Shown here: positions 32,893 through 60,507 of the stretch, piece by piece | Position numbering within the stretch: position 1 is the first letter of the stretch | Layout: each line of letters opens with the position of its first letter | Assembly (NCBI GenBank): GCA_051294905.1 | Contig: CM119373.1 | Coordinates: forward strand, 1,862,001 to 1,926,000 | DNA: 64,000 nt | Source of the DNA: Botryllus schlosseri | Lineage: Eukaryota | Reading direction: 5' to 3' | Notes under the pieces: generated by a model | The model's input: only the letters and a program-made list of their open reading frames with translations | Told to the model about the DNA's origin: nothing | Databases searched by the model: none | Position numbers and translations under genes: made by a program

Positions 32893-33374
32893 ATGTACAG
32901 CGAGCGAGGGTGGAGCTTACGCGTAAGTTCGTCGAAGTGAGAAGACTTGCATTATCGGCATTTACGATGTACTGAACCCTAATGTCATTTGTGATAATAA
33001 TGGTGTTTGTCGACGACAATGGTCATTTACACCAGGCCGATATTTCTTATTTTTGATTCCGTAACCGCCGACTTGTAGCACGGCGCACACTTCTAGGCTT
33101 TTGTAAGACACCGATTATGCCAGGTGTCGCCAACTGAAAACGGGTCGCGGGCCAATTTCAAATTTCAAGGCCGCGGCCCGCATGAATTTAATATCGAGAT
33201 AGACAGGCCGCACAGTTTAACAACCACACTATCTCGTCACCTACTTAACCCTAATGCACTGATATCTTGGTAAATTTGGGGTACCGGGCTTATTGAACGC
33301 CTTGAAATCTTAATGAAGGATTGCACCGTGTGTTGATTGATCAGAGAGAAGCAGACATGGTGGTACCTGTATGA

Positions 33375-38073: not shown

Positions 38074-38140
38074 ATGGCAGAAGGAGGTCACGACCCACGT
38101 GGTCAGAATATCAACCCATCATCCGAAGGTACTATCGTAG
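38074..38140 (+). CDS. First coding exon of the mini-exon gene (MAEGGHDPRGQNINPSSEGTIV)
   Basis: tcaATGG context, open frame, TAG|gtgaga donor in phase 1; preceded by a candidate 47-nt 5'UTR intron (38006-38052). Linkage to 50407 is inferred from phase; the intron is largely a 9.5-kb transposon. Confidence 0.55.
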
Positions 38141-38277
38141 GTGAGACCTTATTTTCACAATTTACCCGTTGTAGGAAACATAATTAGTATACCAATTGCC
38201 AATGCCGCCTCGCAAGAGCTTATTTTATATATTTCAATTTATAATGTACTAAATTGATCAAATGATACCGTCGTGGG

Positions 38278-38468
38278 CAATGTTCCGTCTAATTTTTCAC
38301 GAGCCTGCGCGCACTCACCAACTCATTATGCAGTCCCCTGGAGAACAGTGTGTAACGACTAAATAAAACGATCACCAATGTGAATTTTTCGTGCGCAGCA
38401 TAGATGTTCTGTGCGCAGAGACCGTGTCAGTTTTCTGTGACCGTTTTCCGTGCTTAGAAGGAACATTC
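38278..38468. mobile_element. Short simple copy of the caatgttccctctaa MITE
   Basis: Ends caatgttccgtctaa / ttagaaggaacattc; tgtgcgcagagaccg motif shared with 52617-52798. Confidence 0.65.
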
Positions 38469-39329
38469 ATGGTGGGTATCTCAGTTATCGTAGCAAGTGC
38501 CAAAGTCGCCTACTTATTCATATGTTTCTCATAACCTTGCAATTTCTCACTTCACGATTCGAAATCAATTGTATTCATCTTTACCCTGCACATCTTATTC
38601 AATAACTTTACTATCTACCTATTCGAACATTGGCCTTTCACCAAATCTACATACCTATCATATTGTTTGTTTAATTTTATGCCATCCTTCGTTTACCAAT
38701 GATGTATCTTGGCTGCGTACATATAATGTAGCCTACATATACACTGTAAATTCTGAAGTGTTGCTCAACCCGGAAAATTGAACACGAAACGTGATCCAAA
38801 AATTGAACGCCTAGAAGTGTTGCGAAGTGTTCAAATTTAAGGTGTTTACCTGAAAAGTGTTCAGTCTCAAAGTGGCTGGTTGACTAGTCACCGGAACGCA
38901 GGGCTCAAAGTAAAATCAGATTTTATTGATTCATGAATAAATGACGCTTATAATACCCAACCTGGGTGATTAAATACGTGCAAACATTGAAATTTCCAAT
39001 AGCTGCTGTGACAGGGTTTCATAAATTCAGATCAGCAGTTGAAACCGTTCCCGGAAGAGTCGATGACATGACGAACATCACAAATGATTAAGAGCAAACT
39101 TACTACAAATATCATGCAAATCGCTCTCAATGATGAAAATGAATGCATAGGGAATTAGGGATAGTGATAACAAAATATCATTTAGTATCCTGAACTTTCT
39201 TGACAAGGGCATGGAATCAAATTCATTGGTTACGTCCGTTAGCGGAAAACATGATCAACACAAATCATTACAACTTATTTAAAACTGACCAAATTACGGC
39301 TTGTAAATTTCTAATTTATTGTAAACAAA

Positions 39330-42300
39330 CAAACAATGAATGTATCAGTATCACTACCACTACCACGATAAACAACCATAAGTATTTTTTCACTCTTAAT
39401 GAAATTGGGCCTGCTGAAAATATCCTAGGGCTTGCATTAGAAGTATTTATATCAGCTTAATGCCAATCACTTTTGTTTAAATAACAAAGAAATCGTTTCT
39501 TTGAGTCCATACAAATTTTGCAGATTTACAGAAAAGATTTTGTTGTTATTTACCAGTCTGCTGCAAAATATGAAATATGGAAGTCATTAGGGCAGTGGTT
39601 CTTAAAAAATTTTGGACACGCTCCCATATGATAGCAAAACATTTCACACACTCCTTGTTGTCGTATAATAAAATCTAAAAAAGCAAACAGAACGCTAGAA
39701 ATCCCAACGGATAGTTGGATGGCAGTGACGGTAATGGTTGTTGATGAGAGAATATTCAAATATTAAATTCTGACCATACACAGAGAAATAACTACAAGCT
39801 GCCATGCATGCATGTGCGAAAAAGATTTTAGTTTACAGCGGCTTCACGTCGCTTCAAATGCTTTCTCCTGTTTGAGAACCACTCATTTAGGGTATGACAA
39901 TCCAATGCGTAGCAGCTCAAAACGTCAAGAATGTTTCTGAATACTCCATTTTCACTGAAGCAGTTTTATATTCTTGCCATCAGCTGCATTCCAGGCTCGG
40001 TCAATCTCTGATTCGTGGCGTGCCATGGCGTTTGTTTCTTTTCTACTGGTCGACTCCAAGTTGTGCTCCTTGAAAATGTGAATAAATTCCAAAGTTTTGA
40101 ATATGTCAATGAAAATTCTAAATTTTATGCAGAAATAAATATAAAGATTTCACACACGCAGGTTACACAAGCTTAGGATAGGCGCTCGGATACATGTAAA
40201 ATCCTATCACTGAGAAGGACTAAAATTAGCATAACGACTAATAAAAACATCTTGAATCAGGTCTGCGTTTTTTTCAATTCGGCCATTTTGACATTTACAT
40301 TGACATTCAAACGCACAGGCAACAGTGAGAATGCAGAACTGTAACTCAAAATGACAGTTATAGCAGAACGTCGCAGGTCTATGTAAATTTGTATGGTCCA
40401 CAAAAAAGAAAGATTACGGTACCTGTTTCAATAAGACATGCGCTTGGGTCTTGGATTATATTCGTTTGTCTCTCAATTTGGCTTTGAGATGACACTTGAC
40501 TTCATCAACCTCGTTTCGCTGAAAATGTAATTGATTGCAAACAAGATCCGACAATAAATGTAGTAGAATTGTTGTCCCTATGGGTTCGGTTTTCCATTAT
40601 TATAATTGACATAGGGTAGGCTTTACGTATAACTTTGATTCCAAGATTTTATAGGTGCTTCGAATTGAGACGAGAAAATATACCAGACAAAAGACACATT
40701 GATTGTCTTTAGTACAAAAACTTTGTGACATCTTATCGATGGTGTTGAATACTTTTCCTTCATTGCGGTAATTGTAACTGTTCTCAATCTTTCAAAATCC
40801 TTCATTCCTAATTAAATTTAACTAACAAAATTAATTGGAACTAGCACGACATGGGAAATGATCTCCATTTGATGTTCCAAGTATAGTTCAGTAAGCGGTA
40901 GTTTAAATACATGATACACCAACTCTTCACATTCAACAACACCTCTGTTCAATGTACACAGATCAAGCCTCTCTTCAGCTCATATAGCATATATAGATAG
41001 TTTTTGAGAAAATTGGGACTGCAAAAACCAGCACATTACATAATCAATGGTGATATATGAAATGAATAAATAGACTTACATAATCACATGTTTCCATGGG
41101 TTCTTGAGGCAAAAGTATGTATCACAAAAGATGACTGCACCGGTACAAAATCCGTTCAGATGACTGCTCAAGTCACTATCAACATTGTCTGTTAGCAGAG
41201 GCACGGTGGAACCAGGGTTCTTTTCGAAGAGTCGACATCAGTTGGATGAATTTGAGGATCAATCTAAGACTGTTGAAAAGAAAATACTTGTTTTAAAAAT
41301 TTGCAATACAAGGAAACTATTCAATATTCGAACAGCTTCTTCGAGGTACAAAACTTCAATATAAAATTGAATAGTATATAATATAATAATACATAGTATA
41401 ATCGTCAGCAACTAGTGGAAAACTCGAAAGAACGTTGTACATCAACAATATTATCACAAAATATGACATTACCAGCATTCAGTATTTACTTACGCAGATA
41501 TCAGACTGGATGTATTGTATGTGACAAAAGGGTGTCTTCCATAGAACAATTAATTATTGTAATGGAAAGTTGCATGTGACCTTAACACCAATTTTACTCC
41601 AGCCCGAGTACCATACTTTCCTGGATTGTTAATCCTTTTAGTGAAATTTTATCAGCAAACATTCATAAAAATAACCGAATGCAGCTGAATCAAATTCATT
41701 ATCTAAGGATATACCAGTTTACTTACGAAACATGGCGATGCTCAGCAGTATTTCAAACAACAAATCTATTTCAAAAAAGTGCCATTTGCAATACATACTA
41801 CCTGCAGTTTAGGGCATTTTTCATGTTCTTTCCATCAGCCGCAACCCAGGCTTGATGAGTCCCTGATTCGTGGCATGCCATGGCGGCTCTTTTTCTGTAC
41901 TGGTCAAATCCAATTGCTGCTCCTAGAAAATACAATAAATAATAAAGGAAAATTGTAAATTTTATGCACAACTAAATATAAATATTTCACACAGGTAATA
42001 GCTTACAGAAGCGCAGGAGAGGTGCTCAACCCCCCAGGTTGAGAACCAATGACCTAGTCCATTATAGTTCAGTAAGCAATAGTTAAAGTACAAGTTACAC
42101 GAGCTCATTACTTTCAACTACATCCCTGTTCAGTGTTCAGAGTATACAGTTCACTGTACACTGTACAGTGTACACAGATGAAGCCTTTTTCAGCTCATAT
42201 TGAATAGTCCGTAAGCTACTCTGCGAGATAGTTTGTGAGAAAAGTAGGACTGCAAAAACCAGCAAATTACATAATCAATGGTGATATACAAATTGAATAA

Positions 42301-42950
42301 ATAGGCTTACATAATCACATGTATCCATGGGTTCTTGAGAAGGTCTGCATCGCATAAGATGACTGTGCTGGCACAAAACCCGTTACGAACGACTCCTCAC
42401 GTCACTGTCAACATTGTCTGATAGCGCAGGCACGGTAGACCCAGGGGGCTCTTTTTAAAGAGTAGACATCAGTTGGACAAATTTGAGGATCAATCCAAGA
42501 CTATTGAAAAGAAAATATTTGTTGCGAAAATTCGCAATACAAATGAACTGCTCAGTAATCACGCAGATATCATACTGGATACAGTTGTTATTTTCTGCAA
42601 TAAGTTGTGCATGACTGAACGTTGTCTTTCATAGAATAATTAGGTAATGGAATGGAAAGTTGCACATGACGTTACCACCAATTTACTTTGGCACAGGTAG
42701 TATACTTCCTGGATTGTTAACAATTTTAGTGAAATTTTATCAGCAGACACTCATAAAAATCTTCATCACAAAGATAACCGAATGCAACAGAATCAAATTC
42801 ATTCTCTACGGATATTCCAGTTCACTTACAAATCACCGTGATGCTTACCAGGATTCCATACAGCAAATGCATTTCAAAAAGGTACCAATTGCAATACATA
42901 CTACCTGCGACATAGAGTTTAGTTCAGTTACCATATCATAATATAAACTC
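39330..42950 (-). pseudogene. Decayed multi-exon accessory gene of the CACTA element (SAMD3-like by recollection), with an internal duplication
   Basis: Exon-like blocks with GT/AG ends: ~40807-40630 (MKDFERLRTVTITAMKEKYSTPS), ~40519-40424 (RNEVDEVKCHLKAKLRDKR), ~40049-39900 (ARHESEIDRAWNAADGKN); candidate first exon MDILKQFLLPGGVKDHNVHVL at ~47819-47753; contains stops and frameshifts. Confidence 0.45.
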
Positions 42951-44199
42951 AGAAAAGTCAAATTTGCGGATTGGGCGAAACCAATACTACCCCTTTTGAT
43001 CCATGGTTTGTTGAAAAGATGGTTTGTTTTGCTGTGCTATTATTAGGGCGATTTTTTTGGCTTAAAAAGGGAAATTTGACTAAAAAATCCAAATTCACAC
43101 ATATTTTGATGATGAAAAACTTAATTTTGACCCCATGTACTTAAAGGGGCACTGCACTCAAAAAATGATGTGGTCTCAAATTGAAGGGCAAAACGAAAAA
43201 ATAATTTTGGCCGCAGCCGTTTTCTTCAGAACGCCACCGTAATGGAGCTGCAATTTATTGAAATTTCCAGAGTTGCATCCGGCTGCAGCTGTCGCGGCTC
43301 CGGGTCATTTCTTAACCCGTTACATGGCACGATGCCTTCATCGTCGCACTTGCTCGGCGCGATTAGGCAGTCACGCAGAGGACGAACTTTAGATAGTTGC
43401 CAGCCAATGCTACGAAGGAAATATGTCTTACACGCCAAGGTGGTGTAGATACGCCGTTCCACGGAGGATGTTTACTCAGTTCAGTCAGGAGATTTTTCTC
43501 TTAATCGGGGCTAGGGTATTCTATTTCTTGAGGGCAGGAATAGATCATGTCCTATTCTTATGTTATGTATAAAACATTACCATCACCAATCACTCAATCA
43601 GTGTGCCCTCTGAACATTTCAAAATTCAGAGCGGTCATAATTGGTTTCGCATTCAGGTTGGAGAATCATAAGATGAGGGTTTGAGGGTATCGTAAAATTA
43701 TGGCTTGGGGATTAGTAAGATTACAATACAATGAATATGTTTTAGGGTCAGCTGCGGAGTTGTGGGTTCAGGTTAGGTTTGCGTACCGTTGGATTTTGGT
43801 TAAGGATGATGAATTTTCCTAGAGTACCCGAACCCTACACCAATTTAGAATGTCATGAATTTTGTCATGTTCATGGGGAACCCTGACTGGTGGTATTCGT
43901 GTTGTGGATAAGAAATGACTGAAGTTATCCCGAAAATCGACTACAGCATAAAGTGCTTTTCAACCTGTGTGACGGTTCGTACTTGTGCGAATGAAAAGAT
44001 TTTCAAACAAATAGTCAACCAATGTTAAGCGTGAAAGAAAAACTGTATTTCCGGAGTTGAGCCAGAAAGTTGGCTTTTTTTCAGTCGACCGACAACGGAG
44101 TCTGATTTACCATTTTCCAGGATTCTACATGATCCACTATTCTATTTCTAAAAATTTTGAATAAGTGTCCTCCTGTCCCGAATCCAAAATATGATAATG

Positions 44200-44398
44200 A
44201 TTACCAGTAAACTCGGCCCTCGGTGAATTCGGCCTCACGAACTCGGCCTTCAGTGAACTCGGCCCTCGGGAAATTTTGTTATTACAGCGAATCATTGAAC
44301 TAATAATACTATTATCAAGTGATTGCTGAAAATATTAATAAACCTGAGGGAAGAGTTTGTGTCGCCGAATTCACCGAGGGCCGAGTTCACCGGCAACC
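44200..44398. mobile_element. Small MITE with actcggcc subterminal repeats
   Basis: gattaccagtaaactcggccctcggtgaattcggc / gccgaattcaccgagggccgagttcaccggcaacc; flanks atgataat / atgataac. Confidence 0.7.
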
Positions 44399-44651
44399 AT
44401 GATAACCCTACATTGTAGGTAATAGTGGGCGATGCCAGTGTTGATTTGAATGCAAAGTATTGGAATTTCGGCACACATTCATATAGCGATGACATAACAC
44501 GTCGATTTAGTGGAAAAGTGATATATTGTTCATTGGTTCGCCCTTCAAGCTTCGAAAGAAATCACTGCACGATACCCCCAGAAAAAGCAACGAATACCTT
44601 GAGAACAGCGGAAGTGCGATATCTGTGATTTTTCTACTGCAGTGATTTTAG

Positions 44652-44823
44652 TATTTGATTAATCAACAATACGATACGCTGAATGTGAAATAATGACGCT
44701 CTGTACCTATAGGAAGCCCTACAAATACAAAAGTGATATTTGATTAATCAACAATACGATACGCTGAATGTGAAATAATGACGCTCTGTACCTACAGGAA
44801 GCCCTACAAATACAAAAGTGATA
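44652..44823. repeat. 85-bp tandem duplication
   Basis: Two near-identical units starting at 44652 and 44737. Confidence 0.9.
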
Positions 44824-45002
44824 AGCTTTTCATTTTCTTTTTGTGTAATAAATTCTAGCTGGCTGGTGCGCATTAAATTGTCAAAAAAAGTGCGAATGGA
44901 GCTCAAAAAGGTTGAAAAGCACTGGTCTACGATATTGTCTTGCTCTACCCAGAGTCTTCGTAATAGTATATAGAATATACATTGACATTATTAAAAGCTG
45001 CA

Positions 45003-45560
45003 ATGACATCGACAAGTTGTGCCGTTACATCGTGTGAAGTCAAATGGAATGACGCATCGCATACTCTTCATAAAATTCCTTCTGAAATTGCACTAAGACG
45101 ACAGTGCCATATCCGTCAATAAATCACCAGTTTGCTGTGTGGTATGTCTGCAAAGGTGACTGAATACTGATATTATTTGAATCTTCTTTTGCCTGACTAA
45201 CCATTTCTCAGGACTGAAAAAAAGTTGGTGTCTCTGGGAGAGAAGAAAGGTATGGAAGACTTGCTACTATGGACAAGGAGCATCACCAAACACTTTTGGT
45301 GGTGCTGTCAGCATTGAGGTCAAGATAGCAGTGTAAGTCTACATATCAACTATGTCTGACATCACATATTAGTAACTTTTTATATACCAATATGCAATTG
45401 CAGTTGCAGGTGCTAAAAAGAAGATGGATATCTCTTCTGCATCACATCACTGGCGAACATGAGCGGACACTTGACGGGGAGACATATTCCTGCAGCCATG
45501 GCACTTTGACTGGGGATCAGTGCCTAAGAACTAGATGGTTGCAATGTGGATCTCCCAGTG
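45003..45560 (+). pseudogene. Kolobok transposase relic: THAP N-terminus plus core fragments
   Basis: MTSTSCAVTSCEVKWNDASHTLHKIPSEIALRRQ (THAP C-x4-C...H-x-x-P pattern); KKLVSLGEKKGMEDLLLWTRSITKHFWWCCQH; LKRRWISLLHHITGEHE...CSHGTL...RWLQCGSP. Confidence 0.75.
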
Positions 45561-45719
45561 GATCTGCCCCGTTGTAATACCCTACCCTGGCTATATAGTC
45601 CTCGGTTGTTTCTTTTATTACTATATTGAATTTTTAATAAATACCGAGTAAGCCATTGGTGGAATATAAGAATGCAAACAGTTCCTGTTCGCTGTACTGA
45701 TTTCGACTTATATAGCAGA

Positions 45720-46056
45720 ATCACAGTTCGTTAGAAAGCCTTCTGCCAGGACCATGTGGTTGATTGTTATTATTCCAGTTTTTTCTGTTCACAGTTCGAG
45801 CACCATTCATTGTCAAGTGTCTGAAGTTGACTCTGGTTTTCTGACGATTTCTTTGACCAATACAGTGAGATTGATAAATTGCATTCAAGAAACACAGGTG
45901 CAATACTTGAGTTTGTGCTTCTAGAGTTGCAACAAGACCGGCGAATTCCTCCTCTGAATATTGTGGCTCAAATTGACACGGCAGGCTCTCACCAAATATT
46001 GTGATATCATCGAAATCTTCATCAGAAGTTCATTCATCAACAAGATCTTCTTCCAT
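45720..46056 (-). pseudogene. Relic of the convergent second Kolobok ORF (KolX-like N-terminus)
   Basis: MEEDLVDE*TSDEDFDDITIFGESLPCQFEPQYSEEEF: acidic N-terminus with a P-x-x-F-E-P motif, convergent with the transposase. Confidence 0.5.
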
Positions 46057-49000
46057 ACCATTAATTTTAACAAATTTTACGTTATCTACGTGTCAAAGGA
46101 ATTGCATGAATGAACTGATGGAGACAGAAGATTCGTTAGTGAAACTGAGAACAACAATGTTACGATAAACATTTCCACAACAATATTGGAACTTTGATGA
46201 GAATGAAACAATGATATTTTCGTGTTGACCATCGATACATCTGTGTCTTGTACAAGTAAACTGGACCGTATCAAGGCATGATTCCTTCACAACATCGACT
46301 GACAACTATCTAAAGTTCGTCCTTTGTGTGACTGCCTAATCCCGCCGAGCAAGTGCGACGATGAAGTCATCGTGCCATGTAACGGGTTAAGGAATGACCC
46401 GGAGCCGCGACAGCTGCAGCCGGATGCAACTCTGGAAATTTCAATAAATTGCAGCTCCATTACGGTGGCGTTCTGAAGAAAACGGCTGCGGCCAAAATTA
46501 TTTTTTCGTTTTGCCCTTCAATTTGAGACCACATCATTTTTTGAGTGCAGTGCCCCTTTAAATTAGGTGTTTCTCACATAATGCTAGAATTGTATTACCG
46601 GTACTTATCTTCATTTCTGGATGGAGCTGTCTGTTCTTCCGAAGTAGTTTGACCTGAAAAAATCTTATAGCATGAAAACTGACAAATTTTTACATGAAAA
46701 AACCTTATTTTATCGAAATCTGGACCCGTGGAGAATTCTAGTATTAGTTACATCTCGTATTATGGTAGAAATAATTAAAACTTTGGTGTAGTACAACGAA
46801 AGATACTTTCCTACATTTTCGGGTAGAAAGTGTCTGTCCTAACTAAGTAGCTTGGCAAGAATGAAGAAAGAACGTTCACCAGCGGCAGTTGTTGGCCGGC
46901 TACACTGAAGTTGTGAGTACACTGCCCTCTCTCTCATTATGACAAGGTTGTCTACATCACAATTTTTCATCATACGGTTTCTAATGGAAGAACCAATGCT
47001 CACGCAGTGTTGCTTTAGTTAGAATAGTGGAGTAGGCTACGTTGAGCATTTGTTTCATTTGACAGTCTATTATTCACAATTAGCAGACGATGGTCCGTCT
47101 ACAACGGTAGGACTATAAAGTAGGCTGCAAGATGTAAATTATAAAATGATAAGTTCACCGACAGTGCAATCATCTATGATACAAATGAAATGCAAGTTTG
47201 CCAAAAACATTTTGATTTTGTAAACAATTTCGGCAATTTTTGACCTGACGGTACAATTTTGACAAAATTTTGACCTATGTTGACATGTCACAAAATCGCT
47301 TCAGTAAGCAGTACAGTGTAAAATGTGTACAGTTGAAAAACAATCAAAACCGTTGCATGACTGTCATACCGGTATTCAATTGCTGATATTGCAGTACTTG
47401 TCCACAATGGACCACAATATCGCCTACATAGAGTTATTTCAGTGTGGATGGAGAGAACATCCCTTTATCTATATATCAAAAAAGTTGGTTCGATAGCAGC
47501 TTCCCATCAGTACCTTGTACCTGGTCGCAGCCTGGTAAAATAATCAGATTCGAAGCTCGATCGTCCAGCAATAAGATCAGACGAATTATATACTACAAAA
47601 CATCTAAAGAACATTCATATGAATAAGGGATATCAGTAGCCTACTAAAACATCTAAAACAAGCGACTTTACTGTGCACAATGGCAAAACGACTTCATTTT
47701 ATGACTATTCTCACATTACATATATTCAATAACATTTACCGCATTTCCATACCTTACAGTACATGGACGTTATGATCCTTTACGCCACCAGGTAGCAGGA
47801 ACTGCTTTAATATATCCATTCTGCCAAGTCTTTTAGTGTACCCTACTCTCTGCTTGAAGCCTGACGAACCACCAATTCAAATTCGAAACTGAAATCGAGC
47901 GCGCTCTACCGTAACGAAGGTGGCGACCCCTCTGCGTCACAGGGAAATATGTATATTTTATTGTAATATTACCCTTAAACTTGATGGTTTGGTCAGTTGA
48001 ATAACATTATTATACATATACCATGATTTTATGTGATCTCCAATCCCACCGATACTTTATGAATGTGAAATTGACGATAAATTACAAAGTATAAATTTTC
48101 TTGAAAATAAGCCGCAGTGGCGAAGTGTTACATATAAACGGAGAAATACGCAGAAGCGTTGCGACGATAATGGCCCAGTGCGTTTATATGCCCAAAAAGT
48201 GTGTCTGTACGCAGAAAAAAGTGTTATGAAGTGTTCAATACGACCTTGCGGATTTACAGTGATACGTAATTATGTACACATGACAATCCCAGCTGGTGAT
48301 TGAAATAAAAACTTTGCCGTGACTGGCCGTCACACGCTCGTTTTTGAAATTTGCTACTAGATTTTTGTGGCGTGAAGAAGAAATATATTTATGTGCGCAG
48401 AAAAGTGGTTGCGACGATATGACTTAATCATGAAAATGTGTCGATATTTGTATTACGCAAATTGGTTTGATATTATAATAACACCTGTCTCACTTCCACT
48501 TCTCTGGAAAGTTGTTACTTGCGCGGGTGAAACTAGGGCAGGTTATAGAGCGAGAGAAACAGCGGCAATGCCGCACCGAATATTTGTGATTACACGAGTT
48601 AATTAAAAATACATTCAATAGCTGTATTCGCTATTTTGAAGAAAAAAACGTATTGTATTCCAAGTATCGCTAAACGCTGTCGGGGACCGTTGGTGTACTT
48701 TAGTATAATGTTACGCAACTGGGAACACATGAAGTATCGACCAACATGCGACTGGGTAAAATGCGTTGTTAAAAATTCGGTGATGATGAAACCTTGGCCC
48801 AATGCTACCCGAAATCTTCGATATAGATACTTACCGTCGTCGAAATCGCCGGCACCAAACCATCCCGAAAGATCGATAAATTGTTGAAATCACGCATAAT
48901 TCCGATTGCTCGAGAAATTGAAATCATAAATCGTTCTTAGTATTGATTTGCGTAATATTGGTTATTGCGCATTTTCTATACGGCCCTACTTTCCATATAT

Positions 49001-50406: not shown

Positions 50407-50466
50407 ACAAGCAAGAAGCATTAAGTGCAGGAGAAAGCGGAAGAAAAGAACCGGTGAACGAGAGAG
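50407..50466 (+). CDS. Mini-exon, 60 nt, phase 1-1 (DKQEALSAGESGRKEPVNER)
   Basis: ttttag acceptor, gtagat donor; same length, splice context and SAG core as the paralogous exon 56407-56466. Confidence 0.7.
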
Positions 50467-50706
50467 GTAGATTACTTTCATATAATTTACAGTATGACTT
50501 GCGCGTATGACGCGTTCAAGATTATATGCCCGTGGTATATAGTGCCGTACTGGCTGCCAGGTTTATTGATAGCCCCTGTCGGCGTAATTCCGTGATTGAG
50601 GTCAGTCGTCCGGCCACGTTCAGGCTATATCAGTTTCACTGCAACGAAAAAGCTCATTCATCTATCACTGTTATTTGCTTTTCAGATGGAAATCAAGTGT
50701 CATTGC

Positions 50707-52798
50707 CAATGTTCCCTCTAATTTTTCGCGAGTCTGCGCAAACATGCCAACTCACTGCGCAGGCCCCTGGACAATAGTGCGCAACCAGGCCCCCCATATC
50801 GTGATAAGTCGGACTTCAGGGAGGCTTCGCTTCCCAGACCCGCCTCAGGCTGTACGCTGTTTACCGCTACATCCCTGCTTCGTTCGGTATACGTTTATTG
50901 ATTCACCTTTTCGCGCCTAAACGCGCGCGAGCGAGAAATTTTGATAATTTATGACTGAATCGGTCAATATGTTAGGGAATTGCGTATATATTGCTCTAAA
51001 TTTTTATCCTCTCTCTGCTCACGTAATCTGATTTACCGGTATAGCTGAGGGAGGTGTGTTTAAAAAGGTAGGACCCCTCAATAATAATTTATCATCTCCC
51101 GGTGTATATACCCGTTGGCAGGAACGAAACAGCACTTCGTTAGCCCCTAAAAACCCCCACCCTCCCCCCAAAAAACTTGACTCTTGGGCTCCCATAGGGG
51201 GATAAACTGCCCCCACCCATTACATTGTTCGCTTTTGCCAAGAAATTATAGCTGTACTGTTCAGGGAGCCAGCGCGGAGCGAGAAAATTTTCGATAATTC
51301 ATGATAAAATCGGTCAATAAGATCGGGAAAAGCATAATTTTTGCTATCAATTTCTTGTCCTCTCTGCTCACGTATAATCAAATTTACCGGTAGAGCTGAG
51401 TGAGGTGTCTTTAAAACTGCAGAGCACGTAAATAATAATTGAACAAATGAACATGTTCCAGCGGGCTGACCCGTTGGTATGACTTCGTTACATGATGTTA
51501 TTTCGTGACCTCCTGTATGCTGTATCAAAAATATTGAATCGCCCAAACGTACTAAACTGAAAGATCACACGATTTCGGATTGGTATTTCTTTACTGACAT
51601 ATAATTTTTTCCTGCGGGATGGTATTCGTCTTGTGAGGTTCAGATTGCCAAGACAGGAATATTCGGCGCCAGTCATTTAGGCCTACATATGGACGATTAA
51701 ACCTATACGTGTTTTCGGTCAGCATATGGCAGTCCTTTACGGCCAAGGTTTTCTCGCTGCCGATCGTTCTGGCGCACTTCTTGGTCTCGCATGTTACATG
51801 GCCTAAAACTTTATATGTCTTGGTGTATCGTGGCGCGGTAATGGCCAACGCCGATATGCCCATTTCTATAAACGTAGCGTATTTTTTCTTGGGGGAAGAG
51901 TATACCCAATAATCAATATATTTGGCGACTTAAAATCGCGCGCAGCACGAATTTTTTTTGTTTAAGTTGCTTCGAGCTCGACCCCTGCCCCCCCCCCCCC
52001 TTATTGCAAAAGTGTCCTCTTTTCAGATTTCCAAAATATGGTAATCCTAGGTATTACCTTATCGACAAAAGATTCCCGTTCAAACGAATTGAATAATATC
52101 AAAATTTTAGCTGCTGAGAAGCTGATGTGATTCAACACCTTACAGTGCACAGTTGCAGCGTTTCCCAATCAACGTTTGCAAGGGGATGGATTTTCAGCAA
52201 TGTTGGTGCTTGTACTTCCATATTCTGCATATTATCCTATCTCACCATACGTGATCAGATTTGTCTGATGAAGTGATGACTTCGAAAATTCACGGCATGT
52301 AATTGTACAGTAAATCTTACGCAATGTTCATGCCACACGGAGAAGACTATTCGTTAGTTTCTCGCAAATTAACTTCGCGCTAGCCCATTGTTATTTAGTT
52401 AAATCATGTTATTTCGCCATTCCCAGAAAAGATTGTGCTAAACTGCAATGATATCAGTATCGCTCACGGGTACGAGACCAAACTAAAAGAAAAATCTCTT
52501 TCGTGAGGCGCACGTGATTGCAGATTATCATTTCTTCGCAGAGTGCAATATTCAACTTTACTGGCCGCACTTGTACCTCGGTTTCAGACTTCACCGATAA
52601 CACTATTTGCTCCTGGCAATGTTCCCTCTAATTTTTCACGAGTCCGCTCGCTTGCGCGGTCCCTTGGAGAACAACAATTAAAAAAAGAAAAAAAAGTCAT
52701 CCCTTCGGATTTTTTTGTGCGCAGCTAAGATTTTCTGTGCGCAGAGACCGGTTCAGCACTTCGCATTTGCGCACGTGCGCAGCTTAGAGGGAACATTG
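50707..52798. mobile_element. 2.1-kb composite hAT element (family A repeat, captured block, internal MITE end)
   Basis: 15-bp TIR caatgttccctctaa / ttagagggaacattg; exact TSD gtcattgc (50699-50706, 52799-52806); second internal left TIR at 52617. Confidence 0.9.
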
Positions 52799-53357
52799 GT
52801 CATTGCCCCTTGACGAAGGTGCCAAATGCGAAACAACGCATGCCACTGTTAATGAATTGCAATGTTACCGTCCATTGTTCATTATATCAGACGTATGGCT
52901 TAATAAGTTCAGTTCGGAAATTTTATAAAGCAACTTTTGATATTTACCTAAGCATCGACTGGCTAGCTCTTCTCTCGCAGTCTATATTCTGTCCAAAATT
53001 AAAATGCTTTCATTAAAACATACACAAAATACGAACCACGGAACATGAATGGCCGCGCAATATATTAAAGTAATTTAGAACATCATAACTTGAAATTTAC
53101 CCGTAATAAAATACTCATCTCAGTTTATTTGAACACATTCTTCAATGCATAGGCAGCAATGTTTATCAAGAGCTCCGAGCCGGAGTTATGTCTTTAAAAA
53201 AAAAAAAATTTATACCAAAAAATCTTTGAACGCAATTCCATGTATTCTAGGCTGATCGATCAAATCGCTTCGCTACATTTGTTTGACTATCGCCATGTAA
53301 GGCTCAGATGCCATTTCGATATCTGAAATCTCACTGCCATGTCGTAATACTTTATAT

Positions 53358-53692
53358 CAGTGGTTCCCAACCTTTTTCGACCCATCGCCCCCTTTTCAAG
53401 GTGAACACCGATCATCGCCCCCCAAATTTTGTGTACCGAAAATTGGCCATACAAACTGTAATCAACGGCGGGTTGACTGAAAAAAAAGGTCAAACTTTCG
53501 AATCGATGGCCACAATGACACACTTTTGTAACTAAATTTACGTGGGTTGACTGAAAAAAAAAGGTCATCCGTTTTGACGCGTCATCGCCCCCTTCGCTAT
53601 TTTCGCCCCCTGTCGCCCCCTTCGTCATTTTCGCCCCCTAGACCGCCAAATCGCCCCCTGGGGGGCGATATCGCCCACGTTGGGAACCACTG
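53358..53692. mobile_element. hAT MITE (tcgcccc-repeat family; same family as 16328-17042, opposite orientation)
   Basis: TIR cagtggttcccaac / gttgggaaccactg; exact TSD ctttatat (53350-53357, 53693-53700). Confidence 0.92.
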
Positions 53693-53994
53693 CTTTATAT
53701 CTTACTGACGACTTTAATTTCATCATTTTATTTACTTATGATTTGATGATTCTTCACGACGAAGGCAATCGAATAGTTTTCACGAGTGTGCAGAAATATT
53801 TTGCAGTAAACCTTTTATTACGAGCAATTTGTTTTCAAAACCATGGTGTTATTATTAATATACAACATACAACAGTGGTGCTTATAGCCCGATTAGGGCT
53901 TTGTGCTCCACGACATCACATTTTTTATAACACAGTTCAATGTCATTTCTTCGCGCTCATTGCTCATGCGCTCGCAGTCTTTGCAGCTTCAAGG

Positions 53995-54155
53995 CTTTTA
54001 TTCGGATCTTCCTTTACCGTCGACTTATAGCTCGACCCACTGTCGTATCTGGGCTTTTTAAGTCACCGCAATTGGAGTGAGGTCGGCGATGAGGAGCCCA
54101 TATAACCTCCGACACATAGACGTTAGTCCGAACCGGGATTCGAACCACGACCATG
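53995..54155 (-). mobile_element. tRNA-derived SINE, 5'-truncated
   Basis: Minus strand B-box GGTTCGAATCC, shared body tatgtgtcggagg, tail aaaaagcccaga...aataaaa. Confidence 0.7.
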
Positions 54156-54174
54156 GTGTCTACTAGCCTACTTA

Positions 54175-54360
54175 AAGCAGTGGGTTGCGGGTTCGAGTCC
54201 GACCGAGGTCGACTTCCGAATTCCTATTCCTAGGCGTTGGAGGTTTATCTATGCTTCTCCTAGTCTCCTCGTCAACTCATCCGCGTAAGCTGGGTAGCCC
54301 TATAACAAAAAGCCTAGAGGTTTGCCGTGCCATAAGACGGCAGTTACGGAATAAAAAAAA
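54175..54360 (+). mobile_element. tRNA-derived SINE
   Basis: B-box GGTTCGAGTCC at 54190-54200, tail aaaaagcctaga...gttacggaataaaaaaaa. Confidence 0.75.
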
Positions 54361-54595
54361 TATCGGCCTGATGGTGTAAATGACTATAGTAGTCGACAAA
54401 CGCCATGAACACCACAAACAACAACAACGCGTCAATGAATTCTTGCCCATTGCCATTTTATTCATATCTTTACGGGCCTGTTCAATCAACTGGTGCAGTA
54501 GAAAATCATCAGCTCAGTTATGACTAACAGCGCAGTGTCACCAAGAAAAAAATTAAAAAGATCAGAAATGATTTATATGGTTTCAATGTCTACAG

Positions 54596-54637
54596 GTGGT
54601 GAAAATAAAAACGCATCTGCTGAACGTAACATTTCAA
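54596..54637 (+). CDS. Mini-exon, 42 nt, phase 1-1 (GGENKNASAERNIS)
   Basis: gtctacag acceptor, gtgagt donor, open frame, phase compatible with neighbours. Confidence 0.6.
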
Positions 54638-56226
54638 GTGAGTATTTACTGATTTAACAAGCTGATAAAAATAACTTGATAGATCAGCAATGTTTTTCGG
54701 ATAGACCTAAGCTTTACTCATCCATCGATTGAGCCATCAGCAAGTAGTTACGAACTGAATATAGGCCTCTGCGACCTCTCGCTCTCCCTTCACGTGTGTA
54801 TGGCATCATAATTTCTATATGTATTGATGCTTGATGTACATTCACCACTCATAGTATTACCTATATGCATAATTGTTATTAATATTAAAGATTGGGGGGT
54901 TATTGGTGAAATATCTCTTTTTAATTCTATGATAAAATCAAGTTTGAAAATTAATCAAAATATTTATTTCGGACACTTTCCAGCCTGGAAAATATACCAT
55001 GTCCAATTACTATTCATCCTTTATCAAAGTCATGAATTTATAAAATAATTTTAGCAATTCTTTATTATGAGTAAAATACAAATGTCATCGCTGAAAATGT
55101 TCAATTTAACGCAATCCCATACTTCGTTCGATATGCCAATAGTATAATTCCGCAGATATTCGTGTCGTATTATTCCGGCGATTTCATAATGGTTTCGCGT
55201 CATCTAGGTTACCCTATATGTTCATTTGAAATTTATGTGCATTTCTCATCGATTTCAAATTTTACTACCATTTGCCATAAATGCATCTGAGTGGGCGCGA
55301 ATAAGCGGTCAACTTAGAAAAATTTTCGCGCTCAGCGCAATTTACCAACAATTCAGCGGTGTTTCGCTATATACAGACCGCATTTCATGTGTTTTAATTC
55401 TCTTGTCAACAGCCATAACCTTTCCTGCCATCAAACAATCTGTTGGGATTGCTATTTTCCCGGTTGGATTTGTGATATCACGATAAGGGGGCGCGAAAGT
55501 TTTCGTGTCTGAAAAAAAGGTTGAGAACCACTGCTCTATAGAAAGGGCGGGCAAACTGCGACTCTTTCAGCTATGTTTGCGGCTATTCAATGATTGCTCA
55601 TGAGTTTCGCCATTTTGCTAGACAGGTTGAACCTGATGATAAATTGATGCATTCTATCGCGAATTACCTATATGCGATTTGTTTTCGTGTTGTTTCTTTC
55701 CTCAATGTTTACGCAAAACTTGTAAAATTTTTGGGAAAGTGGCACTAAGGTTAAATTTTCCAATTGAACTCTCAAATCAAGTTGACATAAACGTTTTACC
55801 CGTAGCTATGGTGGCTGGTCATCAATCAATCATAAATCATCGTGTGCAACAATGAACTTGATAATTATTCCCGCCAGCGCATGTAACGACAATTCCCGGG
55901 CTAGCAATGGTTAATACAGTTCTTCCATTTGTATTATAAAGGCTAGCAATAGCTGCAGAGTTTGACCAAGATACTCAAGCGATAAGTGCAGGAAAATAAA
56001 GTATGGCCAGGAAAACAGCAAATTGAAACCTCATTACGAAATCAAACACTAAGACTTTGGTAAACGAAGACCGGAGTAAACTTCATTCGATAGCCTACAT
56101 ATGAATGTGACGTAATAAATTCGTATTTTGGGTTTTTGTGTTGTGGCTCTTCTAAATCCAAGATTGTTGATATGCTGCTTAACAAGCTCTACCCCTGCTC
56201 TATAATGAAGTGTTGTGCCATGTTAG

Positions 56227-56325
56227 GGCATGCGATCTTGGCTGAAGGAGATCAGATATTTCAAGATTTTGGAAATGCTACCGTGAATGTTGTTGCAGGA
56301 GACCAGTACACGACAGTGATTAATG
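56227..56325 (+). CDS. Exon, 99 nt, phase 1-1, amyloid/RHIM-like repeat 1 (HAILAEGDQIFQDFGNATVNVVAGDQYTTVIN)
   Basis: gttag acceptor, G|gtaagc donor; paralogous to 60406-60507 at the protein level. Confidence 0.78.
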
Positions 56326-56406
56326 GTAAGCTCTAAAATGAAGCACTTGGGACCATATTCAAATAAGCCACTGTTAAGGGATAATCTCTGTGATTGCTCT
56401 TTTTAG

Positions 56407-56466
56407 GTGAGCAACAAATAATAAGTGCTGGACGAAGCGCAAGGAACGAGTCGGTGGACGAAACAG
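56407..56466 (+). CDS. Mini-exon, 60 nt, phase 1-1 (GEQQIISAGRSARNESVDET)
   Basis: ctctttttag acceptor, CAG|gtagag donor; paralog of 50407-50466. Confidence 0.7.
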
Positions 56467-56670
56467 GTAGAGTCTTTTCCAACGACCGTGTGAATTCCCT
56501 TGAGCTGGTATGAAGTAAAGCTGGCGACCTAGTGTGCATGATGAACAAGACTACAAGGTCGCATTCTTATCAGTACCGGTTACAGGCCCCAGCGTTCAGT
56601 ATATACACAATTCACTGCTATGATTAAAAGGCTCATTCATCTTCCTCTACCTTTACCATTCGCTTTTCAG

Positions 56671-56733
56671 AGGGTAATCAGGTGTCATCGTGCACGGACG
56701 TAACCGTGGAATGTGAAACAACGCATGGGGCAG
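56671..56733 (+). CDS. Mini-exon, 63 nt, phase 1-1 (EGNQVSSCTDVTVECETTHGA)
   Basis: Long pyrimidine tract ending cttttcag, CAG|gtaata donor, open frame. Confidence 0.68.
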
Positions 56734-57451
56734 GTAATATGATAAATACATTAACCAGTCGTACAGTTGAATCGCATACAATCTAACCCGCTTAATTCGG
56801 ACATCGGACAACTCGTACAACTGATTTATTCGATGAAAGTGCTCCAGTACGGAACCAATGTAAAAATTGCATGCGAAAACCCGGTTTAATTCCGACCATT
56901 CTACGCTTCATCAGGACATGAGTTCGCAATTCCAATCACTATGGGATATGGGCTTATGGCACTAGTTGGTGAAATAATGACAAACTATGCTATAATCGGC
57001 AATGAACTCAGATAATGTCGAATCAGCTATATAGTCGCTTGTACTTGGTACAATTGTATCCATCTTCTAGAACAGAATGATACCTAAAATACCATTTCAA
57101 CCGTTACTGTTTTTTGAAGAATTATTACCTATGAAAAACCTATGTGAGTATGTTACACAATGATGTAGTCCATGGTACTTGTTTAATAGTTTGGAATCGA
57201 AATACTGCAAAATACAACTAGCACAGTGGTTCTTACGCTTAGTCACCAGCGTAACACCAACGCTGATCTACAAGCCTTCGCAGTACCCCAAATCTTCGTC
57301 GACCCATAAAATCAAAAATATATCACAACACAAATCCAACTACACAATACAGTATAGATTACCGGTGCAAAAAATGAGCAGCTCGTCAGCATAGCGGTAA
57401 AATAGCGAAACCAGATATTATTTTCATACAAAATGAAAGTATTCTTATGAG

Positions 57452-59716
57452 CATAGGCGCCGACATTTATTTTTGCATGGGGTGGCGGCAGGCGCGTAGC
57501 CAGGGGGGTGTCGAAACCCCGTCCTTTTGAAACGCAATACCCCGTCCTTTTGAAATGACCATTCTGATGCTAATATTCCGTTGCATTAAACAAGTCGTAT
57601 AATTAGTGTTACGCGCGGTCGCAATCAATTAGCGAGATTCGTCTGTGCACGCAACGCGATCTCCCGCTGAGATCATTGCGAAATTAGGTCATTGATTGCC
57701 GAGCACTCGGCATTCAATTCTGGACTGAGCACTGAGCAGTGGTAGGCACAACAATTCTGGAACACGAAAGACAGACAAGAAATATGATTACAAACGCGTA
57801 CGGTCAATCAGTAATTATTCCTTACCTCCAACACAATGGGATTTTACTTCGTATTGAGTAGCTCACATCGCGACAATTGGTTGCCGATCAACTTTGCGCT
57901 CAGAGAATATTTATCACAAAAATGGTTCACAAAATATTTTAAACGCGGCTTGCGGCCCTCATCGATGCAAATATTGCACTTTAATTTGTAGAAGGTGACC
58001 GCATATTTGGTCGTCAAATCGCGATAGGAGATGGTGTTTCTCAGAGCGCGCGATGAAATCCAAGTTTCTAGCGATGAGGTCGAATTTTTACATCTCATAA
58101 CGATCGTTAGTTTGCTGGAATGAGCATCAGTGCGCTGTGCGAAATACATAGTAGTGATCAATTTTATCGGACTGTACAATTGGCCGGCAAGGTTGCGATG
58201 ATACCGAAATTGTAGACATGCCGCAAACCAGCGATAATTACAATAACAGGGCGCGCTAGTAGTACCTAAATGCCCAGATTCGGCAATGGCAACGAGCACG
58301 ATTTGTTCAGATGCGGGCACAAGTTTTAATCAAAAAGATACATAAACAGTAAACACAAGCAATATTACAGTCAGAGATTGTTACTGCATGCAGACGCGCT
58401 AAATCAAATCACCGACGACAGTGCACACGAGATATCGATGACCCATTTCGCATACGAATGATTCCCGCTAATTTGGAGTACTCAGCATCGATAACACGAA
58501 TTGTGAATTGAGATTTCAAAAGGACTTGATTTCTAGTTTTAAATGAGAAACTCACTGGCTACGCACGTATAGTGTTTTAATTCCGACAACGCGCTGGTTA
58601 ATATCAGCCCCGAGCCTACGGCCTACGTAGGTCCCGATCAGCCAGTCGAATTAAATCGTGAAATGGTGCGATTTTAATTATCAAGGTGCTATTGCAGCAA
58701 GAGCAATATGGGCACATTCCGCAACCTTACAATGCGAGTACAAATCCCAATGGTTTGAAATTTGTTCCGCGATATGGTTGCGCCCGATAGAGTCCGTCCA
58801 GCAATGAAGTCTATAGGAACATAGAAGGTTCCCGCTCAAACTAATCGATTAAATTTAGAATTTGCGCCACAGAGAATCTCTTGTTGCAGCAATATTTGTC
58901 AACGTAATTCAACGCCGTGCACTGCACAATGCGCAGTATTAATAACAAATTAAACGCTGACAAGTGACATCAAGGGAATACGAATGTATAAAGCAGACAA
59001 GAATTAGTAGCCTACAGTTGTTAGCAAACGAGAAAGCGCTCCTAATCAGTTATTCCTCAACTTGCGTACAGCACAATGAGGTTCCGAGTCTGATATCGCG
59101 ACAATTGTTTGCTCATTATAACGACGTTGGAGATGCATTGCTGCATTTCCCGATAAAAGTCAGCAAAGCCTTGTTAGAGTAATGAATATGTACATTTTGC
59201 GCAGGAATGTCTTTCTATTCGCAGGCATACACTTTCCTATTCCTCGTTCCAATTAAAAAGACTATCATGAAACTAACTCAAGAATTAGTTTGTGAACGAA
59301 TATGCGCGCAAATACAATTTAATTGAGAGAAGTAGAACGTGAATACGTTCGTCTGGTCAAGAGAGGAGCTGTTGTTTCTCAGCACAAGCGTGTCGAAATC
59401 GACGCCGTCAACGAGGTCGCTTCGATTGTATGATTAGTGATTAGTTGATTACTAATCAATCACGGATTACACTTTATTGGGGCGTAGTTCGTCGTCGCCG
59501 ACGAAGCTGAGTATCCAATTATCCACGCGCGTATTGGTTAATGGTAAATAGTTGGCATTTACGCGATATCACGGACTCGCTAATTGACAGCGCAGACGGA
59601 GGGCGTTAAGCATTTTGCATGGGGTGGCCGCCACCCCATAATTGTGTCATGGGGTGGCCGCCACCCCATAATTGTGTCATGGGGTGGCTGCGCCACCCCG
59701 TAACTCGGCGCCTATG
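57452..59716. mobile_element. 2.3-kb non-autonomous hAT element in an intron
   Basis: TIR cataggcgccga / tcggcgcctatg; exact TSD cttatgag (57444-57451, 59717-59724); 30-bp tandem units at 59618-59700. Confidence 0.9.
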
Positions 59717-60405
59717 CTTATGAGTATTTGTTGAAAATCGGCGTGACTTCTATTTTTTTCATCAATATACCAGTTCGAAATTGGTGAGCATCACTTTGGA
59801 AAGAGCTATCACATGGTATGTTGAAAAGTCGAAACGCAACAGCGTGATGCCGATTGCTTTTAAATAGGAGCTTACAAATGTTGGACGTAGAATCATTCAA
59901 CATTTCAGAAGGATAAGGTTTGAATTTTGAAACCAGCGTTTCCTGACTATTACAATGCATACAACGTACACCACAACCGTACAAATAAGACTAGTGATCG
60001 CGCCTAATCGACTGCAGCCAATCATGGTCAGTACTGGTATATCATTACAAATATTATGTATGACTTGCGGATGTGTCGTGGCCCTGATTGTTCCATTGAA
60101 CACCGGTTAAGAACCAATGAGGGTTCAAATCGAAGGATTTGATGCGTTCACTCCAACTAATGTAGTATAGTGCAGCATCAATTTATCAATTTTTAGGCGT
60201 TGTCAAACTTTGCGAATAACCAATGACCATGACACGAACAATTGATTTTCCAACTAATTCAGGGAAAGCCTTTTCTCCGCTCAATTCGACCCGAAGTGAG
60301 CGTAATTAAACTGTCCGCATTAAACGGAGTTGACTGTATTTACAATTACTGTAATAGAAATATATGTTGCTAATCATCAGATATTGGGGTTTACACTACC
60401 AGCAG

Positions 60406-60507
60406 GTCTTGCAACATTGGCCGAAGGTAATCAAGTCAATCAAAGGTTTGATAACAGCACCCTGAACGTTGTTGCAGGAGACCTGAATATCACCAATGTG
60501 ATCAAAG
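60406..60507 (+). CDS. Exon, 102 nt, phase 1-1, amyloid/RHIM-like repeat 2 (GLATLAEGNQVNQRFDNSTLNVVAGDLNITNVIK)
   Basis: ccagcag acceptor, AAG|gtgagc donor; paralogous to 56227-56325. Confidence 0.78.

What the first reader, a model, noticed from the sequence alone, without database searches (positions are those of the whole stretch)
38074..60507. Hidden mini-exon gene with tandem RHIM-like/amyloid-signalling motifs: candidate invertebrate amyloid-based immune or cell-death protein
Seen: seven plus-strand exons with GT/AG ends, all joined in phase 1 (38074-38140, 50407-50466, 54596-54637, 56227-56325, 56407-56466, 56671-56733, 60406-60507). They splice into one open frame: MAEGGHDPRGQNINPSSEGTIV-DKQEALSAGESGRKEPVNER-GGENKNASAERNIS-RHAILAEGDQIFQDFGNATVNVVAGDQYTTVIN-GEQQIISAGRSARNESVDET-EGNQVSSCTDVTVECETTHGA-GLATLAEGNQVNQRFDNSTLNVVAGDLNITNVIK. 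The two ~33-aa repeats share LAEG[DN]Q-x-x-Q-x-F-x-N-x-T-[VL]-NVVAGD, lack proline and are rich in N/Q/G/V/T, set in polar linkers. Established: short motifs of this composition mediate amyloid signalling in RHIM proteins (RIPK1, RIPK3, ZBP1; core [IV]Q[IVL]G), the Drosophila Imd/PGRP-LC cRHIM, and fungal/bacterial NLR N-termini. Inference: this is the N-terminus of an NLR-like receptor or adaptor carrying a non-canonical VVAGD amyloid motif. No NACHT or death-fold domain is visible in the window.
Basis: partly seen in the sequence, partly recalled or inferred. Interest (0 to 1): 0.8.

Follow-up and report, generated by a model that had tools for sequence, protein, structure and literature searches.

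The report
Shared motif links NLRs to kinases
These small exons are the front end of a sea-squirt-type immune receptor (NLR) gene. Their repeated 26-residue motif also sits in front of about a hundred sister receptors and six IRE1-like kinases, which points to an undescribed, possibly amyloid-type, receptor-to-enzyme signalling tag that has not yet been tested.

Summary
All seven exons are there, with AG/GT ends in phase 1 and one open frame. They lead in frame into a NACHT exon 3.4 kb past the window, followed by many LRR-like exons. This is the 5' end of an NLR, probably ascidian.

The repeat is a conserved, self-contained exon with 147 copies found (pooled dN/dS about 0.15). Of these, 102 lie upstream of a NACHT exon. 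Six lie 1.5-5.5 kb upstream of an IRE1/RNase L-type kinase exon (chance mean 0.4), with no listed NACHT nearby. In the five checked, the motif and kinase exons join in frame. One locus continues into a second IRE1-type kinase and KEN-ribonuclease exons.

It is not a RHIM: 0 of 40 copies have the tetrad or a RHIM Pfam match. It fits only the loose cRHIM pattern VxxG.

Best reading: a lineage-specific homotypic, probably cross-beta, tag through which activated NLRs cluster oligomerisation-activated kinases and RNases. Splicing, binding and amyloid formation are all untested. The motif is N-terminal on the kinases, unlike known amyloid effectors.

The parts
38074..38140 (+). Exon 1 (ATG, 22 codons, phase-1 donor): first coding exon of this NLR subfamily
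   Evidence: 18 paralogous copies, 16 upstream of a motif exon; same ATG and donor in paralogues
50407..50466 (+). Exon 2, polar linker, duplicate of exon 5
   Evidence: 42 of 60 nt identical to exon 5
50686..50703 (+). Truncated twin of the start of exon 6 with an intact acceptor; remnant of an internal duplication, probably not used
   Evidence: alignment of the exon 2 and exon 5-6 regions
54596..54637 (+). Exon 3, polar linker; least supported exon
   Evidence: splice scores; no paralogue in the loci held
56227..56325 (+). Exon 4, motif copy 1
56407..56466 (+). Exon 5, polar linker
56671..56733 (+). Exon 6, linker
60406..60507 (+). Exon 7, motif copy 2. Its phase-1 donor fits the acceptor of the NACHT exon at G000:C3:1929392, 3.4 kb past the window end. 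Related, intron flanks included, to the motif exon of the kinase locus at C3:57845.

Best explanation
The gene is an NLR (motif-motif-NACHT-LRR-like repeats). The 26-residue motif is a portable homotypic interaction tag that takes the place of a death-fold domain.

Proposed steps:
1. The LRR-like region senses a ligand and the NACHT oligomerises (inferred from NLR biology).
2. The clustered N-terminal motifs stack into a short cross-beta nucleus (inferred from the strictly kept pattern: alternating V-x-Q-x-F-x-N, an Asn-rich V-N-V-V strand, an invariant Gly, almost no Pro).
3. The nucleus recruits proteins that carry the same motif, here IRE1/RNase L-type kinases (inferred from shared motif, shown only at gene level).
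4. Crowding switches these on by trans-phosphorylation or dimerisation. At one locus this could activate a KEN ribonuclease (inferred from IRE1/RNase L biology).

Shown: the gene anatomy, the conservation of the motif, and its presence on both receptor and kinase loci. Not shown: transcripts, binding, fibrils, outcome.
For: - NACHT exon in frame after exon 7.
- 102 of 147 motif copies have a listed NACHT downstream on the same strand within 50 kb; 6 have one upstream and 2 on the other strand.
- 6 of 147 have a kinase exon within 10 kb downstream, 0 upstream, 0 opposite. Local-shift null: mean 0.43, maximum 4 in 5000. None of the six has a listed NACHT on the same strand within 200 kb.
- In 5 of 5 such loci with DNA in hand, motif and kinase exons are open and phase 1 on both sides. 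In three of them the first in-frame Met lies after the catalytic lysine motif, so the kinase exon needs an upstream exon.
- The best PDB matches of the one such kinase searched are IRE1 (E 1e-24).
- At C3:57845 a second IRE1-type kinase and two KEN exons follow on the same strand.
- Purifying selection on the motif: pooled dN/dS 0.15, pN<pS in 772 of 780 pairs.
- NLR-side versus kinase-side identity averages 53%. The BASS paper gives 43-56% for cross-seeding pairs (passage).
- No listed Death-domain hit lies within 20 kb of any of 121 copies on the same strand.
Against: - No RHIM tetrad in 0 of 40, no relevant Pfam match, no PDB sequence match.
- Known effectors carry the motif at the C-terminus and, in fungi and bacteria, lie next to the NLR gene. 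Here it is N-terminal and unlinked.
- Only 6 of the 57 closest kinase hits have a listed motif within 10 kb upstream. A close paralogue at C1:39286682 shows none in the 2.7 kb upstream that was read.
- 39 of 147 copies have no assigned downstream domain. Three extra fetches looking for one found none.
- The Styela clava homologue has no detectable motif, so there is no support from a second species.
- The KEN-bearing unit at C3:57845 has an ATG at the start of its first kinase exon and may be a separate gene.
- One motif-linked kinase has HRN in place of HRD.
- Sharing an exon does not prove binding.
Confidence: 0.5

Rival explanations
1. The motif is a short linear docking, localisation or turnover signal that binds a common third protein. 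NLRs and kinases share it because they use the same adaptor, without amyloid and without binding each other.
For: N-terminal on both protein types, unlike known amyloid effectors. One unaligned single-chain model shows a two-strand hairpin at residues 17-30 (pTM 0.28, weak). Strong conservation fits any binding site.
Against: 26 conserved positions are long for a linear motif. The Asn/Gln/Val/Gly alternation, invariant Gly and near absence of Pro (2 of 40) are the pattern of amyloid signalling motifs (established knowledge).
Confidence: 0.25
2. The motif works only in cis on NLRs (auto-inhibition of the NACHT, or NLR-NLR assembly). The kinase-side copies are by-products of phase-1 exon shuffling or are not spliced to the kinases.
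For: About 17 NLR-side copies per kinase-side copy. Nearly all exons examined in these genes are phase 1-1, so shuffling is easy. No transcript evidence.
Against: Kinase-side copies are open, keep splice sites and the core pattern although diverged from each other (65-87% nt in the nearest-neighbour rows). They sit at a regular short distance in six loci, and three kinases need an upstream exon.
Confidence: 0.15
3. The motif is a much diverged descendant of RHIM/cRHIM rather than an independent invention. This is about ancestry and is compatible with the best explanation's mechanism.
For: VxxG, the cRHIM pattern given in PMC13506858, is present at the invariant Gly in 35 of 40 copies. RHIM-NACHT proteins exist in amphioxus.
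Against: VxxG fixes only two residues. No tetrad, Pfam or PDB match. Kajava et al. state tunicates appear to lack RHIMs.
Confidence: 0.2
4. The seven-exon model is partly wrong (for example exon 3 or 6 unused, or alternative use of the two motif exons), although the gene is a real NLR.
For: No RNA test was obtained. Exon 3 has no paralogue in hand. A remnant exon at 50686 shows internal duplication and decay. The two motif exons are nearest to different paralogues.
Against: All are phase 1-1 with good splice sites and no stop.
Confidence: 0.2

Closest known systems
Fungal and bacterial NLR amyloid signalling motifs (HET-s/NWD2 R0 and other HRAMs, PP, sigma, PUASM, BASS1-10); passages of PMC7889193, PMC9815663, bioRxiv 10.1101/2020.01.06.895854 read
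   Same: Short N/Q/V/G-rich motif at the N-terminus of NACHT-type receptors in place of a folded effector domain. The same motif occurs on non-NLR proteins. Many receptor copies, few effector copies (as reported for basidiomycetes).
   Different: Animal host; LRR-like C-terminus; partner is an IRE1-type kinase with the motif in front, not a HeLo/Bell/PNP domain with it behind; genes not adjacent; motif on its own shuffled exon; no Pfam match. The authors' own BASS/FASS profiles were not available to test.
RHIM (RIPK1, RIPK3, ZBP1, TRIF; amphioxus RHIM-NACHT proteins); passages of PMC4262963 and PMC12119088 read
   Same: A short motif shared by a sensor and a kinase; sometimes in two copies separated by polar linkers; crowding would activate the kinase.
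   Different: No V/I-Q-V/I-G tetrad; kinase is IRE1-like, not RIPK; motif precedes the kinase; RHIMs reported absent from tunicates.
Insect and crustacean cRHIM (PGRP-LC/LE, Imd, STING, SRB2); PMC13506858 section 7 read
   Same: VxxG pattern at the invariant glycine (35 of 40).
   Different: Different host proteins and a longer conserved frame. The pattern alone carries little information.
IRE1 / RNase L kinase-KEN enzymes; passages of PMC10400998 read
   Same: Kinase closest to IRE1 in PDB; KEN exons downstream at one locus; RNase L activates by dimerising (passage), IRE1 by high-order assembly (cited title only).
   Different: No luminal or ankyrin sensor seen in the DNA held; a motif exon stands in front instead. 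One locus continues into PARP14-like KH exons (weak Pfam matches).
Ascidian NACHT-LRR proteins said to lack an N-terminal domain (PMC11508797, passages); Styela clava LOC120334672 (P0008)
   Same: NACHT-LRR build without a death fold; best full-length homologue of this NACHT (E 6.5e-13, 21% identity).
   Different: Here the apparently empty N-terminus holds a conserved motif. The Styela protein does not score with the motif profile.

Membership tests
NLR (NACHT-LRR) | NACHT NTPase domain in frame | tested here: met
   PF05729 E 3e-13, over cut-off; phase-1 acceptor fits exon 7
NLR (NACHT-LRR) | C-terminal LRRs | tested here: inconclusive
   Nine 56-aa repeat exons plus related ones over about 105 kb match the Styela repeat region only weakly (E 0.05-2.6); two single units gave no Pfam match; one gene not shown
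NLR (NACHT-LRR) | Spliced transcript joining the parts | not tested
RHIM | Core tetrad [IV]Q[IVL]G / G-phi-Q-phi-G | tested here: not met
   0 of 40
RHIM | Match to the RHIM profile or to solved RHIM chains | tested here: not met
   0 of 40 members in Pfam at E<=10 (that Pfam holds a RHIM model is and recall); no PDB chain at E<=10
cRHIM | VxxG pattern | tested here: met
   35 of 40, 38 allowing Ile; low information
NLR amyloid signalling motif (HRAM/PP/sigma/PUASM/BASS type) | Short motif at the NLR N-terminus | tested here: met
   102 of 147 copies upstream of NACHT
NLR amyloid signalling motif (HRAM/PP/sigma/PUASM/BASS type) | Same motif on a non-NLR effector | tested here: met
   6 kinase loci, 5 checked in frame; genomic only
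NLR amyloid signalling motif (HRAM/PP/sigma/PUASM/BASS type) | Motif C-terminal on the effector, gene adjacent to the NLR | tested here: not met
   motif precedes the kinase; no listed same-strand NACHT within 200 kb (list is a lower bound)
NLR amyloid signalling motif (HRAM/PP/sigma/PUASM/BASS type) | Sequence match to a described family | tested here: inconclusive
   no Pfam match; the authors' BASS/FASS profiles were not seen
NLR amyloid signalling motif (HRAM/PP/sigma/PUASM/BASS type) | Forms cross-beta fibrils and templates the partner | not testable with these tools
   needs experiment
IRE1/RNase L-type kinase (partner loci) | Kinase domain nearest to IRE1 | tested here: met
   one motif-linked kinase and the second kinase at C3:57845 searched: IRE1 chains rank first
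IRE1/RNase L-type kinase (partner loci) | KEN ribonuclease after the kinase | tested here: inconclusive
   PF06479 over cut-off downstream at 1 of 6 loci; may be a separate gene

The most novel reading that the evidence does not exclude
This animal, a probable invertebrate chordate, has a fungal-style amyloid NLR system of its own. About a hundred NLRs signal through a new amyloid motif family, unrelated in sequence to RHIM, that was exon-shuffled onto IRE1/RNase L-type kinases with different tails (KEN RNase, KH array). An activated NLR would directly nucleate and switch on kinase and RNase effectors, with no death-fold adaptor.
Probability: 0.4. Interest if true: 0.92.

Novelty: new variant of a known kind. 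Interest (0 to 1): 0.8.

Why it matters
NLR-linked amyloid signalling is described as appearing specific to fungi and bacteria (PMC9815663, passage). Ascidian NLRs are described as lacking an N-terminal signalling domain (PMC11508797), and tunicates as lacking RHIMs and RIPK1 homologues (PMC4262963, PMC12119088). How these receptors signal is therefore open.

This finding supplies a candidate tag and, beyond what earlier notes on this genome list, candidate downstream enzymes that carry the same tag. The question becomes testable with two 30-residue peptides and one RT-PCR. If true, it would be a convergent RHIM/RIPK-like design built from an IRE1-type kinase, and a route from NLRs to an RNase L-like nuclease.

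Tried and rejected
- RNA: no RNA holder was listed for the exon 4-6 stretch, and no reads could be laid. Neither is evidence either way.
- Complex prediction of NLR-side with kinase-side motif never ran, so there is no verdict.
- Single-chain AlphaFold models are uninformative (pTM 0.28). Fold searches with one of them found nothing.
- Protein databases: the motif profile found five short unnamed Logan/ENA fragments that look like the same exon family and two unrelated repeat proteins. With the 40-row profile, one of those fragments only. No full-length motif-bearing protein from any named species.
- ESM Atlas gave only sub-0.8 hits for the motif and none for a domain behind the C5 kinase.
- Viral contigs: 44 pattern matches, none confirmed. 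Prokaryote genome and metagenome collections could not be scanned with this alignment.
- A look-alike stretch in the Styela N-terminus was rejected: 333 of the 630 scored shuffles (of 1000) did as well.
- MLKL_N search rang nowhere, controls included, so it says nothing.
- Death-domain hits are not linked to the motif.
- Two separate captures of the motif by kinases: suggested (one copy sits in a 96/96 clade with 14 other copies; 0% of bootstrap trees need a single change) but not shown (AU p 0.058 and 0.28; 78 columns).
- Unassigned copies followed by DNA: one had an unlisted NACHT (C12:3141456). Six showed no long domain frame in the 5-7 kb read (C1:11609761, C3:16440081, C8:3917728, C1:17089530, C4:15078651, C3:13119640). 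Two 2.5-kb guesses for a kinase behind C3:21620750 and C3:21788098 found none.
- Literature searches listed no paper on this motif; the string NVVAGD gave 0 papers. Subscription papers are not covered, and the BASS preprint's supplements were not seen.
Full report
Observation. The window is G000:C3:1862001-1926000 of a 495.5-Mb animal genome. Exon 1 has 18 further copies, and 16 of them have a motif exon downstream within 30 kb. Exons 2 and 5 are duplicates, 42 of 60 nt. A truncated twin of exon 6 lies at 50686-50703. Exon 3 rests on splice signals only. No RNA reads could be laid, so splicing is inferred.

The gene. A 483-codon open frame at C3:1929367-1930815 matches NACHT (PF05729, E 3e-13). 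Its acceptor at 1929392 is phase 1 and continues exon 7 in frame. Nine near-identical 56-residue repeat exons and related ones follow over about 105 kb. They resemble the repeat region of a Styela clava NLR only weakly, and no other NACHT frame of 150 codons or more appears in the 120 kb read. That Styela protein is the only full-length homologue found (E 6.5e-13, 21% identity). The animal is therefore probably an ascidian; the species was not determined.

The motif family. Exon 7 finds 121 places at E<=10. With two kinase-side queries the union is 147; weak hits are included and counts are lower bounds. Of 44 profile hits in DNA held, I dropped 2 stop-containing chance hits. The other 42 (one duplicates exon 7) all have a phase-1 AG and a phase-1 donor under a lenient search, and three donors were corrected by eye. 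The 40-row alignment (two redundant rows left out) gives L-A-E-G-[ED]-[NQ]-V-x-Q-x-F-x-N-S-x-V-N-V-V-A-G-D-Q. Gly is invariant and Pro occurs in the core of only 2 of 40. Pooled Nei-Gojobori dN/dS over 26 codons is 0.15, with pN<pS in 772 of 780 pairs; pairs are not independent and dS is near saturation. Against 167 NACHT places, 102 of 147 copies have one downstream on the same strand within 50 kb, 6 upstream and 2 opposite. No listed Death-domain hit is within 20 kb of any of 121 copies on the same strand. Two copies in one gene, as here, is the exception.

The partner side. Two copies without a NACHT proved to lie about 1.1 kb in front of a single-exon protein kinase. A genome search with that kinase gave 118 hits, from 150 scored of 248 candidates. 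Six motif copies have such a kinase 1.5-5.5 kb downstream, none upstream or opposite; shifting the motifs locally gives a mean of 0.43 and at most 4 in 5000 trials. For five of the six I hold DNA: motif and kinase exons are open and phase 1-1. In three, the first in-frame Met comes after the catalytic lysine motif, so an upstream exon is required. The one motif-linked kinase searched against PDB is nearest to IRE1. Four keep HRD and one has HRN. At C3:57845 the same strand continues with a multi-exon IRE1-type kinase whose first exon is phase-1 compatible but also holds an ATG, and then two KEN-ribonuclease exons. At C5:3175229 it continues into exons with weak PARP14-type KH matches below cut-off. 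The C3:57845 motif exon resembles window exon 7 into the intron flanks and falls in a 96/96 clade with 14 other copies. A single origin of the kinase-side copies is nevertheless not rejected (AU p 0.058 and 0.28). Against the partner reading: only 6 of the 57 closest kinases have a listed motif, a close paralogue shows none in 2.7 kb, and 39 copies are unassigned.

Mechanism. My best reading (0.5) is that the motif is a homotypic, probably cross-beta, tag. NLR oligomerisation would nucleate a stack that recruits and crowds motif-bearing IRE1-type kinases, which activate by proximity; at one locus this could fire an RNase. Gene anatomy, conservation and sharing are shown. Transcripts, binding, fibrils and outcome are inferred. 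NLR-side and kinase-side cores are 53% identical on average, within the 43-56% reported for cross-seeding BASS pairs. Rivals: a docking motif for a common adaptor (0.25); a cis-acting NLR element with passenger copies on kinases (0.15). Two further possibilities are not exclusive of these: descent from RHIM/cRHIM (0.2) and errors in the exon model (0.2).

Comparison with what is known. It is not a RHIM: no tetrad in 40 copies, no relevant Pfam match, no PDB match. The cRHIM pattern VxxG is present in 35 of 40 but says little. It works like the fungal and bacterial NLR amyloid motifs in sitting at the NLR N-terminus and on a second protein. It differs in being N-terminal on that protein and unlinked to the NLR gene. 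The Styela homologue does not score with the motif.

Papers. Seen as passages only: PMC4262963, bioRxiv 10.1101/2020.01.06.895854 (supplements not seen, and they hold the BASS motif data that bear on membership), PMC12261475, PMC11508797, PMC12119088, PMC7889193, PMC9815663, PMC10400998. PMC13506858: passages and section 7. Nine searches listed no description of this motif; this does not cover subscription journals. General statements on NLR oligomerisation, kinase catalytic motifs and amyloid sequence patterns are from my own knowledge.

Earlier notes of this scan. Several describe the NLR-side motif in other windows of this genome, and others describe unusual IRE1-type fusions. The summaries shown do not mention the motif on kinases. 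These are unchecked AI notes and not independent support.

Verdict. Real; an NLR N-terminus carrying an undescribed conserved motif shared with IRE1-type kinases. New variant of a known kind; interest 0.8.

Noticed in passing
G000 genome-wide, e.g. C4:20656892+ / C4:20667428-: 66 of 116 Death-domain hits have an opposite-strand twin 4-25 kb away, in open frames of about 100 codons with near-identical scores. This looks like a mobile element carrying a Death domain in its terminal inverted repeats.
   Followed up: partly
G000:C3:1938000-2043000 (L032-L042): The LRR-like exons lie in multi-kilobase tandem duplications 85-97% identical, introns included: recent expansion of the sensor region of this NLR.
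   Followed up: partly
G000:C3:16.1-17.6 Mb and 20.0-21.7 Mb: Large clusters of single-exon IRE1-like kinase domains, several dozen copies, mostly without a listed motif exon.
   Followed up: partly
G000:C3:13.05-13.79 Mb: Cluster of eight weak KEN/Ribonuc_2-5A hits, most in open frames of about 600 codons.
   Followed up: no
L044 and L048 (G000:C5:3176822-3190800): Behind the motif-linked kinase lie exons with weak PARP14-type KH matches and an internally duplicated exon; the architecture is unresolved.
   Followed up: partly
L051:198-347 and 525-635 (G000:C1:17089198-17089635): A second locus with two motif exons in tandem, both divergent; no domain frame in the next 5.4 kb.
   Followed up: partly
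L040:6887-8203: Open 439-codon DDE_Tnp_4 (Harbinger-type) transposase frame among the LRR-like exons. Window 5085-5267 (-) looks by eye like the start of a related element; no Pfam match.
   Followed up: partly
window 32267-32899; 43141-43429 / 46273-46561: A 312-nt inverted repeat with a 9-nt spacer (95%) and a 289-nt inverted pair 2.8 kb apart (95%): MITE or foldback-like elements.
   Followed up: no
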